From: Escherichia coli
Lineage (GTDB): Bacteria > Pseudomonadota > Gammaproteobacteria > Enterobacterales > Enterobacteriaceae
DNA length: 64,000 bases
Assembly (NCBI RefSeq): GCF_013122565.1
Contig: NZ_CP053258.1
Direction: 5' to 3' (one strand)
The position numbers were made by a program, and so were the translations under genes. Positions 15,445 to 15,649 of this stretch are shown here, piece after piece (within the stretch, counting starts at the first letter, position 1; the number at the start of each line of letters is the position of its first letter). The notes under the pieces are model-generated. The model did not search any database. It saw nothing but the letters and a program-made list of their open reading frames with translations, and was not told where the DNA came from.

Positions 15445-15649
15445 AAAAACGCCTGCTCTTATTACGGAGCAGGCGTTAAAACAGGTCTGTATGACAACAA
15501 GTGGGTGCTTCACTCAACGTTGTGTCCATGGTGTCTGATGAGGCATAAGCGACATCTGTCAGTGGACGATAAGCACCGTAAACGGCTCTGCGTCATTCCG
15601 GGGTTTATGAGGCACTAAGGCGAACATAAGAGATGGAATGAGCATCTAC
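15445..15649 (-). ncRNA. glmZ: GlmZ small regulatory RNA (glmS activator)
   Basis: Minus-strand sequence GTAGATGCTCATTCCATCTCTTATGTTCGCCTTAGTGCCTCATAAAC...ends in terminator ACGCCTGCTC-cgtaataa-GAGCAGGCGTTTTTT; matches my recollection of GlmZ in the aslA-hemY intergenic region. Confidence 0.8.

What the first reader, a model, noticed from the sequence alone, without database searches (positions are those of the whole stretch)
15445..15649. GlmZ sRNA is present and shares its terminator with the neighbouring ORF
The minus strand carries a sequence I recognise as GlmZ (5' GTAGATGCTCATTCCATCTC..., 3' stem-loop ACGCCTGCTC...GAGCAGGCGTTTTTT). It explains the terminator-like hairpin at 15447-15480 and the AT-rich region upstream of aslA, which I would otherwise have flagged as foreign DNA. 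Its 3' end overlaps the stop codon of the 199-aa ORF, so the hairpin is physically shared between the two convergent transcripts.
Basis: established knowledge. Interest (0 to 1): 0.2.

Follow-up and report, generated by a model that had tools for sequence, protein, structure and literature searches.

The report
GlmZ small RNA gene, confirmed
This is the well-studied GlmZ regulatory RNA of E. coli in its usual place next to the heme genes; the only unusual thing is that this genome keeps an uncharacterised small membrane-protein gene, lost from about 87% of E. coli, which ends exactly at GlmZ's terminator.

Summary
Confirmed and ordinary. Window 15443-15649 (minus strand) is a full-length GlmZ gene: Rfam RF00083 scores 218 bits against a threshold of 60, and 206 of 207 nt match E. 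coli K-12 glmZ. It has the 15-nt glmS-pairing site, a canonical terminator with a U7 tail, the K-12 sigma-70 promoter, and the usual position between hemY and aslA.

- The ORF's TAA (15442-15444) does overlap the last 2 nt of GlmZ.
- The hairpin is a canonical terminator only on GlmZ's strand. On the ORF's strand it is followed by AAAACAGGTC, with no U-tract, so functional sharing is unproven.
- GlmZ (48% GC) does not explain the AT-rich stretch 15650-16073 (28-37% GC). Only about 40 nt of it is the glmZ promoter, and the rest is absent from non-Escherichia relatives, as are aslA and aslB.

The added result concerns the ORF. It is a real, conserved, unnamed gene (probably 196 aa, starting at TTG 14854). 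It has two membrane helices and a carrier-protein-like fold without the conserved serine. It lies between hemY and glmZ in K. aerogenes and other enterobacteria, is frameshifted in E. albertii, and is absent from 87% of E. coli. The missing segment runs exactly from the hemY stop codon to the GlmZ 3' end.

The parts
15443..15649 (-). glmZ gene (GlmZ/SraJ/RyiA sRNA), 207-nt primary transcript, +1 = 15649
   Evidence: Rfam RF00083 at 218.2 bits, full model. 206/207 identical to K-12 glmZ b4456, with only nt 48 changed U to C in an unpaired position of stem-loop 1.
15480..15501 (-). [quoted passage not shown] The RapZ/RNase E processing site (~nt 151, window ~15499) lies inside it.
   Evidence: Constrained RNAduplex against the K-12 glmS leader: 15 paired GlmZ nt against glmS -41..-21, dG -19.2 kcal/mol, 9 of 2000 shuffles as good. 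This matches the published 15-nt site, -41..-19 target and ~151-nt processed form (PMC4152352).
15443..15477 (-). GlmZ intrinsic terminator: hairpin 15448-15477 plus T7 run 15443-15449
   Evidence: 11-bp stem, 7 GC, loop 8, tail TTTTTATGAC; z -5.8; Rfam consensus structure. The stem base and U-tail are invariant in four taxa.
15650..15689 (-). glmZ sigma-70 promoter (-40..-1), with an extended -10 TGgCATAAT at 15656-15664
   Evidence: Window identical to K-12 from the GlmZ 5' end through 15700. In K-12 the region upstream of -40 is dispensable, mutations in -35 or -10 abolish activity, and there is no GlrR or sigma-54 control (PMC3045617). The simple scan did not flag it because the -35 is weak.
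14854..15444 (+). Conserved hypothetical gene (probably 196 aa from TTG 14854; the mechanical ORF starts at ATG 14845, 199 aa). Two N-terminal membrane helices plus a C-terminal carrier-protein-like domain. Convergent with glmZ; the stop TAA is at 15442-15444.
14808..14839 (+). Canonical intrinsic terminator directly after the hemY stop, immediately upstream of the ORF's ribosome-binding site
   Evidence: 10-bp stem, loop 5, tail TTTTTTACAA; z -4.5.
14805..15439 (.). Presence/absence segment: 635 nt here, against 44 unrelated nt in K-12. Its ends are the hemY stop codon and the CAT preceding GlmZ's A/U run.
   Evidence: Alignment A1. The ORF is present in 693 of 5426 complete E. coli genomes.
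15650..16073 (.). AT-rich divergent glmZ-aslA intergenic region (424 nt)
   Evidence: GC 0.28-0.37. Same length as the -424..+32 fragment used in K-12 and as the K-12 reference. Not homologous to non-Escherichia loci beyond about -45.

Best explanation
Window 15443-15649 (minus strand) is the glmZ gene. It is transcribed from a constitutive sigma-70 promoter at 15650-15689 and ended by its own hairpin and U7 terminator. The 207-nt RNA uses the single-stranded stretch between its central stem-loop and its terminator (nt 149-170) to pair, with the help of Hfq, with the glmS leader. This opens the hairpin that masks the glmS ribosome-binding site and raises GlcN6P synthase production. When GlcN6P is plentiful, RapZ binds the central stem-loop and recruits RNase E, which cuts inside the pairing site (~nt 151) and inactivates the RNA; GlmY counteracts this as a decoy. 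All of that is established for E. coli K-12 and is inferred here from near-identity. The neighbouring plus-strand ORF is a genuine but dispensable gene for a small membrane-anchored protein of unknown function. It is an old resident of the hemY-glmZ gap in Enterobacteriaceae that most E. coli have lost. Its stop codon abuts or overlaps GlmZ's U-tail because the gap is minimal, not because the hairpin has been shown to terminate both transcripts.
For: Identity of the RNA: full-length Rfam hit; 206/207 identity to annotated K-12 glmZ; stable fold; a 15-nt complementarity to glmS -41..-21 that reproduces the published interaction; promoter sequence identical to the experimentally dissected K-12 promoter; conserved position convergent with hemCDXY (PMC3045617). 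Terminator direction: only the minus strand meets hairpin-plus-U-tract criteria. The ORF is real and old: dN/dS about 0.28, and orthologs at 37-57% identity in the same slot in K. aerogenes and unnamed taxa, each followed within 3-6 nt by GlmZ on the opposite strand. The ORF is being lost: absent from 4733 of 5426 E. coli genomes, frameshifted in E. albertii, and preceded in Escherichia by a canonical hemY terminator.
Against: No expression data were available, so transcription, processing and RapZ/Hfq dependence in this particular genome are inferred from K-12. The single nt-48 change is untested. The direction of the presence/absence event (loss rather than gain) rests on synteny in only four non-Escherichia lineages plus E. 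albertii, and the Phytobacter-type homolog sits in a different locus. The ORF's function is unknown. The carrier-protein fold comes from an AlphaFold model and has no sequence-level support (Pfam none; hhalign to AcpP probability 0.3%).
Confidence: 0.95

Rival explanations
1. The hairpin at 15448-15477 is a true bidirectional terminator. It ends GlmZ on one strand and the ORF (or hem-operon readthrough) mRNA on the other.
For: It is the only structured element after the ORF in every lineage examined, with an ORF-stop-to-GlmZ distance of -2 to +6 nt. The hairpin is equally stable on both strands, -23.9 and -24.9 kcal/mol for the 60-nt context. No other plus-strand terminator-like site lies between 15480 and 16200. 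From general knowledge, convergent gene pairs in E. coli often share a terminator.
Against: On the plus strand the stem is followed by AAAACAGGTC (1 T in 10), and the scan reports it only on the minus strand. Canonical bidirectional terminators have an A-tract on one side and a U-tract on the other (general knowledge). Here the second tract cannot evolve because that sequence is GlmZ's conserved pairing and Hfq region.
Confidence: 0.25
2. The ORF is a dead remnant. The overlap with GlmZ is incidental and nothing is translated from 14854-15444 in this genome.
For: Deleted in 87% of E. coli and frameshifted in E. albertii. Constraint is relaxed, with dN/dS about 0.28 against below 0.01 for hemY. 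A canonical terminator sits directly upstream and no promoter-like site was found for it. It has a TTG start in this window. No family or name exists.
Against: The frame is intact and full-length in all 693 carriers. dN/dS is well below 1. There are 17 invariant and 31 nearly invariant columns across genera. The model folds confidently. The gene is common in K. aerogenes, on about 975 contigs.
Confidence: 0.2
3. The RNA is GlmY, the sister sRNA in the same Rfam clan, or a non-functional GlmZ-like copy.
For: GlmY and GlmZ share the first two stem-loops and belong to one clan. Lower-scoring overlapping clan matches were suppressed.
Against: The GlmZ model wins over its full length. The glmS-pairing site that GlmY lacks is present (PMC4152352). 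The locus is hemY-linked and not next to glrK/qseE. The sequence is 206/207 identical to K-12 glmZ.
Confidence: 0.01

Closest known systems
E. coli K-12 GlmZ (b4456; SraJ/RyiA; Rfam RF00083)
   Same: 206/207 nt identical. Same promoter sequence, same 424-nt distance to aslA, same terminator, same glmS-pairing site, and same orientation convergent with hemY.
   Different: One base differs (nt 48, U to C, in an unpaired position). In K-12, 47 nt with a small GC hairpin separate the GlmZ 3' end from the hemY stop. Here 638 nt, including a 196-aa gene, fill that gap. RefSeq lists K-12 glmZ as only 172 nt, while the literature and Rfam give 207.
GlmY (Rfam RF00128, same clan CL00011)
   Same: Homologous 5' two-thirds, including the central stem-loop bound by RapZ (PMC4152352).
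   Different: [quoted passage not shown] None of these applies here.
Group I/II enterobacterial glmZ genes (Yersinia, Salmonella), driven by sigma-54 and GlrR
   Same: Same RNA, and the same linkage to hemCDXY (PMC3045617).
   Different: The Escherichia/Klebsiella type (group III) has a single constitutive sigma-70 promoter and no GlrR sites. The window carries the K-12 promoter sequence.
Bidirectional intrinsic terminators of convergent gene pairs
   Same: One GC-rich hairpin sits between two convergent genes, with an A-run on one flank.
   Different: There is no U-tract on the second strand, so the defining symmetry is missing.
Acyl/peptidyl carrier proteins (PP-binding fold), for the neighbouring ORF only
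   Different: No Pfam PP-binding hit. hhalign to E. coli AcpP gives probability 0.3%. The position matching the phosphopantetheine serine is V/A/L/D and the adjacent residue is variable in the family alignment. The domain is fused to a two-helix membrane anchor.

Membership tests
GlmZ_SraJ (RF00083) | Covariance-model score at or above the curated gathering threshold, over the full model | tested here: met
   218.2 bits against 60; model 1-214 of 214; E 3.9e-56.
GlmZ_SraJ (RF00083) | Architecture: 5' stem-loop, central stem-loop, single-stranded linker, Rho-independent terminator with a U-tail | tested here: met
   Rfam consensus structure is satisfied with no non-canonical pairs flagged. MFE -60.8 kcal/mol, z -4.1. 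Terminator found.
GlmZ_SraJ (RF00083) | About 15 nt in the linker complementary to the glmS leader (-41..-19), the feature that separates GlmZ from GlmY | tested here: met
   GlmZ nt 149-170 pair with K-12 glmS -41..-21 through 15 nt, dG -19.2, 9/2000 shuffles as good. This agrees with PMC4152352. The glmS leader came from K-12, because glmS lies outside the window.
GlmZ_SraJ (RF00083) | Genomic position: convergent with the hemCDXY cluster | tested here: met
   hemX and hemY lie upstream on the plus strand. The arrangement is the same in K-12, E. albertii, K. aerogenes and three unnamed taxa. Stated as a family trait in PMC3045617.
GlmZ_SraJ (RF00083) | Escherichia-type single sigma-70 promoter, with no GlrR or sigma-54 control | tested here: met
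   By sequence identity only: the window equals K-12 from +1 through about -51. The K-12 promoter was dissected experimentally.
GlmZ_SraJ (RF00083) | RapZ binding and RapZ-dependent RNase E cleavage at ~nt 151; Hfq dependence; activation of glmS | not testable with these tools
   Inferred from 100% identity of nt 49-207 to K-12.
GlmY (RF00128) | No glmS-pairing site; located upstream of glrK/qseE | tested here: not met
   The pairing site is present and the locus is hemY-aslA.
Bidirectional intrinsic terminator | Stable GC-rich hairpin between convergent genes | tested here: met
Bidirectional intrinsic terminator | U-tract following the hairpin on both strands | tested here: not met
   Minus strand: TTTTTATGAC after the stem, part of a T7 run. 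Plus strand: AAAACAGGTC.
Bidirectional intrinsic terminator | Mapped RNA 3' ends on both strands at the hairpin | not testable with these tools
   No transcript data were available, and no paper in the library addresses it.
Acyl carrier protein / PP-binding (PF00550), for the ORF | Profile match to PP-binding | tested here: not met
   No Pfam or NCBIfam hit; hhalign to AcpP probability 0.3%.
Acyl carrier protein / PP-binding (PF00550), for the ORF | Four-helix carrier fold | tested here: met
Acyl carrier protein / PP-binding (PF00550), for the ORF | Conserved serine at the start of helix II for phosphopantetheine attachment | tested here: not met
   In alignment A2 the residues before the conserved (V/D)EL are V/A/L/D followed by S/R/N/C/G/D/E, so no serine is conserved. 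The registration was done by eye against the AcpP DSLDTVEL motif.

The most novel reading that the evidence does not exclude
In the roughly 13% of E. coli that keep it (including ST131), and in K. aerogenes, the hemY-glmZ gap may encode a functional membrane-anchored, serine-less carrier-protein-like factor linked to the hem cluster. Because that gene has no terminator of its own, its transcription would run antisense through glmZ. GlmZ levels, and through them cell-envelope precursor synthesis, would then depend on hem-operon readthrough in carrier lineages but not in K-12-type strains.
Probability: 0.08. Interest if true: 0.4.

Novelty: already known. Interest (0 to 1): 0.12.

Why it matters
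For the scan, this resolves the region as known biology. The 207-nt conserved non-coding block, its terminator and the short promoter are GlmZ, a textbook sRNA that controls glmS and cell-envelope precursor supply. It should not be flagged as new.

Two modest points go beyond that. First, automated RefSeq annotation omits glmZ in the records examined, and the K-12 reference lists a truncated 172-nt version. Raw-sequence scans will therefore keep rediscovering it. Second, the gap between hemY and glmZ is a presence/absence site for an unnamed, conserved small membrane protein, and the missing segment is bounded exactly by the hemY stop codon and the GlmZ 3' end. That is a clean example of functional elements marking the ends of a lost segment, and a cheap candidate for anyone studying hem-cluster accessory genes or strain-specific contexts of GlmZ.

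Tried and rejected
1. Unconstrained RNAduplex of full-length GlmZ against the whole glmU-glmS spacer gave a meaningless 146-nt pseudo-duplex, and the first shuffle control was uninformative. I replaced it with a test restricted to the published windows.
2. Pfam and NCBIfam scans of the ORF found nothing above noise.
4. Profile comparison of the ORF family with E. coli AcpP showed no sequence-level relationship, so the ORF is not filed as an ACP.
5. Fixed-offset identity for hemX gave about 40%. This is an artefact of a length polymorphism in the HemX Pro-Ala repeat and was discarded.
6. Literature searches for the ORF's RefSeq accessions, for a glmZ terminator, and for glmZ together with hemY found no paper dealing with the ORF or with terminator sharing.
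7. The simple sigma-70 scan did not pick up the real glmZ promoter, which has a weak -35. I relied on identity to the experimentally defined K-12 promoter instead.
8. I considered a genome-contig scan to map the ORF across all species and did not run it. Named K. aerogenes and E. albertii loci, plus three further syntenic loci, already answered the question at far lower cost.
9. GlmY was considered and rejected (see the membership test).

Full report
**1. Observation**

The minus strand from 15649 reads GTAGATGCTCATTCCATCTC... and ends ...AACGCCTGCTCCGTAATAAGAGCAGGCGTTTTTTT at 15443.
- A scan of the whole window against Rfam 15 places GlmZ_SraJ (RF00083) at 15443..15649 on the minus strand. 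The match covers model positions 1-214 of 214 at 218.2 bits (gathering score 60), E 3.9e-56, with no non-canonical pair flagged.
- A permissive rescan of 14700-16200 finds no competing family.
- The 207-nt RNA folds to -60.8 kcal/mol, z = -4.1 against dinucleotide shuffles.
- The mechanical ORF list gives 14845..15444 on the plus strand, 199 aa.
- The terminator scan finds the hairpin at 15448-15477: an 11-bp stem, 7 G-C pairs, an 8-nt loop and a T-rich tail.

**2. The RNA is GlmZ**

The K-12 reference annotates glmZ (b4456) beginning GTAGATGCTCATTCC, 424 nt from the aslA start and convergent with hemY. The window has the same 424-nt spacing (16074 minus 15650).
- Over 207 nt the window matches K-12 at 206 positions. 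The exception is nt 48 (U to C), an unpaired position of stem-loop 1 in the Rfam structure.
- What separates GlmZ from its sister GlmY is a site of about 15 nt, between the central stem-loop and the terminator, that pairs with the glmS leader at -41..-19 (PMC4152352).
- I fetched the K-12 glmU-glmS spacer and restricted the duplex search to the linker and the -50..-11 leader segment. GlmZ nt 149-170 (window 15480-15501) pairs with glmS -41..-21 through exactly 15 nt, dG -19.2 kcal/mol. Only 9 of 2000 shuffles did as well.
- The same site is intact in GlmZ of E. albertii, L004 and L007.
- Upstream, the window is identical to K-12 from +1 through about -51, including an extended -10 TGgCATAAT at 15656-15664.
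- Gopel et al. showed that E. coli glmZ uses a single constitutive sigma-70 promoter, that everything upstream of -40 is dispensable, and that GlrR does not bind the -424..+32 fragment (PMC3045617).

The mechanism is taken from the K-12 literature and inferred here from identity, not tested. It comprises Hfq-assisted opening of the glmS SD-masking hairpin, inactivation by RapZ-recruited RNase E at about nt 151, and protection by the decoy GlmY.

**3. The shared terminator**

The TAA at 15442-15444 supplies the last two A's of the plus-strand A7 run, so it overlaps GlmZ's U-tail by 2 nt.

Directionality is another matter.
- On the minus strand the stem is followed by TTTTTATGAC, completing a T7 run.
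- On the plus strand the same stem is followed by AAAACAGGTC, with 1 T in 10.
- The scan reports the site on the minus strand only, although the hairpin is about equally stable on both strands.
- The plus-strand tail is the complement of GlmZ's ...ACCUGUUUUAACGCC, which is invariant across four taxa. It therefore cannot evolve into a U-tract.
- No other plus-strand terminator-like site lies before aslA.

The hairpin is physically the only 3' structure available to the ORF transcript, but by sequence it is a one-way terminator. Whether it stops or merely stabilises plus-strand RNA is open. I put true bidirectional function at about 0.25.

**4. The ORF is the variable part of this locus**

Presence and absence:
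- Megablast of 14700-16100 against 5,426 complete E. coli genomes matches 5,425 of them, but only 693 cover the ORF segment.
- A blastn search with the ORF alone finds the same 693, each full-length and each annotated "hypothetical protein". They form two allele classes: 104 genomes at 95-99% identity to the window and 589 at 80-90%, including ST131.
- K-12, O157:H7 and REL606 lack it.

Junctions:
- In the alignment, K-12 and the window part immediately after the hemY stop codon and rejoin at CATAAAAAAACGCC, the 3' edge of GlmZ. This leaves 635 nt here against 44 unrelated nt (with a small GC hairpin) in K-12.
- The ORF's stop codon therefore lies in sequence that ORF-less genomes also have.

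Evidence that the gene is real:
- dN/dS between Escherichia alleles is 0.27-0.30, against below 0.01 for hemY.
- Homologs down to 31% identity share 17 invariant and 31 nearly invariant columns, notably ICQFAR-x-F...VD-x-WVIRAVW and LNAQPM.
- All homologs begin MR(T/V)PSRY, and PGAP calls the same start. The true start here is most likely the TTG at 14854 (196 aa), 8 nt after AGGA, and not the ATG at 14845.

Evidence that it is old at this site:
- Orthologs sit directly after hemC-hemD-hemX-hemY and are followed by GlmZ on the opposite strand within 3-6 nt. This holds in two unnamed taxa (L004 at 57% and L015 at 42% identity), in a K. aerogenes-like contig (L007, 37%), and in a named K. aerogenes assembly (L013).
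- The K. aerogenes protein cluster is seen on about 975 contigs.

Evidence of decay in Escherichia:
- In E. albertii the gene is split into 80-aa and 118-aa pieces.
- In Escherichia carriers a canonical terminator (14808-14832 plus a T run) stands between hemY and the ORF's ribosome-binding site. The K. aerogenes-type hairpin at that position lacks the T run.

Taken together, the gene looks ancestral to the gap and is being shed in Escherichia.

One caveat is that a Phytobacter-type homolog lies in an unrelated locus without GlmZ. Another is that the window's flanks are K-12-like (hemY 98.9%, intergenic 98.6%) while the ORF-carrying strains GF60 and 5-1 are 93-96% identical there. Recombination has therefore reshuffled this region.

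**5. What the ORF encodes**

There is no Pfam or NCBIfam match. AlphaFold with the 13-sequence alignment gives pLDDT 80, with two long N-terminal helices (residues 21-49 and 52-85, both hydrophobic) and a compact helical C-terminal domain.
- Foldseek against the PDB returns mostly acyl carrier proteins at weak E-values.
- Profile comparison with E. coli AcpP is null.
- The position that would carry phosphopantetheine is not a conserved serine.

The protein resembles a carrier protein in fold only, and it is not a member of that family. Its function is unknown.

**6. The AT-rich region**

GlmZ is 48% GC. The low-GC stretch (0.28-0.37) begins just upstream of GlmZ's 5' end and runs to aslA.
- Aligned with E. 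albertii it is conserved. Aligned with L004 and L007, homology ends about 45 nt upstream of glmZ +1, and the tRNA-operon terminator follows within about 130-180 nt.
- In the window the identical terminator sequence is at about 19240-19275.
- So about 3.5 kb, comprising aslB, aslA and the AT-rich spacer, is present in Escherichia and absent from those relatives. This fits the published remark that the region upstream of glmZ is variable.

GlmZ does not explain the AT-rich DNA. Whether that DNA was gained in Escherichia or lost elsewhere is not resolved here.

**7. Verdict**

The finding is correct and already known. The shared-terminator reading is right about geometry and unproven about function, and the AT-rich explanation is wrong. 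The only new information is descriptive: a conserved, unnamed membrane-protein gene that is lost in most E. coli and bounded precisely by the hemY stop and the GlmZ 3' end. Interest is low.

Noticed in passing
L015:3595-3930 (minus strand): GlmZ of an unnamed enterobacterium (Logan DRR658786 contig) matches the full Rfam model but spans 336 nt. A ~124-nt insertion sits in the apical loop of the central stem-loop, the stem-loop that binds RapZ. The insert contains GGGAATCCCCAGGAGCTTACAAAGGTAAGTGACTGGGGTGAGCG, which I recognise from memory as the core of an ERIC/IRU repeat (ERIC1R/ERIC2 primer sites). This would be a repeat element inside an sRNA gene.
   Followed up: partly
window 15650-19275: aslA, aslB and the AT-rich spacer (about 3.5 kb) lie between the glmZ promoter and the terminator of the argX-hisR-leuT-proM tRNA operon. 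In K. aerogenes and three other enterobacterial loci, glmZ and that tRNA terminator are only about 130-180 nt apart. The block is lineage-specific, and gain versus loss was not resolved.
   Followed up: partly
window 14854-15444; L014:3001-3600: The ORF family (two membrane helices plus a serine-less carrier-protein-like domain) has no name in any library. A Phytobacter palmae-type homolog (about 40% identity) lies in a different locus, after potI-like, ybjO-like and rlmC-like genes, with no GlmZ nearby.
   Followed up: partly
window 15727-15751 (minus strand): A direct repeat ACTCAGGAAG occurs twice with a 15-nt period (15751-15742 and 15736-15727, or -102..-93 and -87..-78 from glmZ +1), with a degenerate third copy GCTCAGGGTA just upstream. 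It lies in the part of the spacer shown to be dispensable for the glmZ promoter in K-12, and may be relevant to aslA (PMC3045617).
   Followed up: no
window 13608-14804 (hemY), especially its last ~52 nt: 6 of the 13 differences from K-12 hemY cluster in the last 52 nt, next to the presence/absence segment. The window also differs from the ORF-carrying strain GF60 at 4 of those positions. Flanks are K-12-like while the ORF allele belongs to a minority class, giving a mosaic that suggests a recombination junction inside the hemY 3' end.
   Followed up: partly
window about 13500-13570 (hemX 3' end): HemX carries a long Pro-Ala repeat ([17 protein letters not shown]). Its length differs from K-12, GF60 and strain 5-1, and this broke fixed-offset comparisons.
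   Followed up: no
NC_000913.3 3986432-3986603 (L012:2433-2604); L001-L003: The K-12 reference annotates glmZ as 172 nt, stopping before the terminator, while the literature and Rfam give 207 nt. The three PGAP-annotated RefSeq genomes inspected carry no glmZ feature at all.
   Followed up: yes
window 51453-51742, 58296-58404, 36300-36399, 54963-60184, 19282-19715: Other Rfam hits above threshold: Rev39_5p_UTR (157 bits), StyR-44 between 23S rRNA and a tRNA (125 bits), the TrxA 5' UTR thermometer (79 bits), a complete rrn operon with flanking tRNAs, and a four-tRNA operon. All are on the minus strand and consistent with the K-12 rrnC-to-hemX region.
   Followed up: no
L001:1606-1652 (K-12 hemY-glmZ gap): The 47-nt K-12 spacer that replaces the ORF segment contains its own GC hairpin CCCGGAGG-CAAGCA-CCTCCGGG without a U-tract. 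Its origin is unknown and it shows no clear homology to the ORF's 3' end.
   Followed up: no
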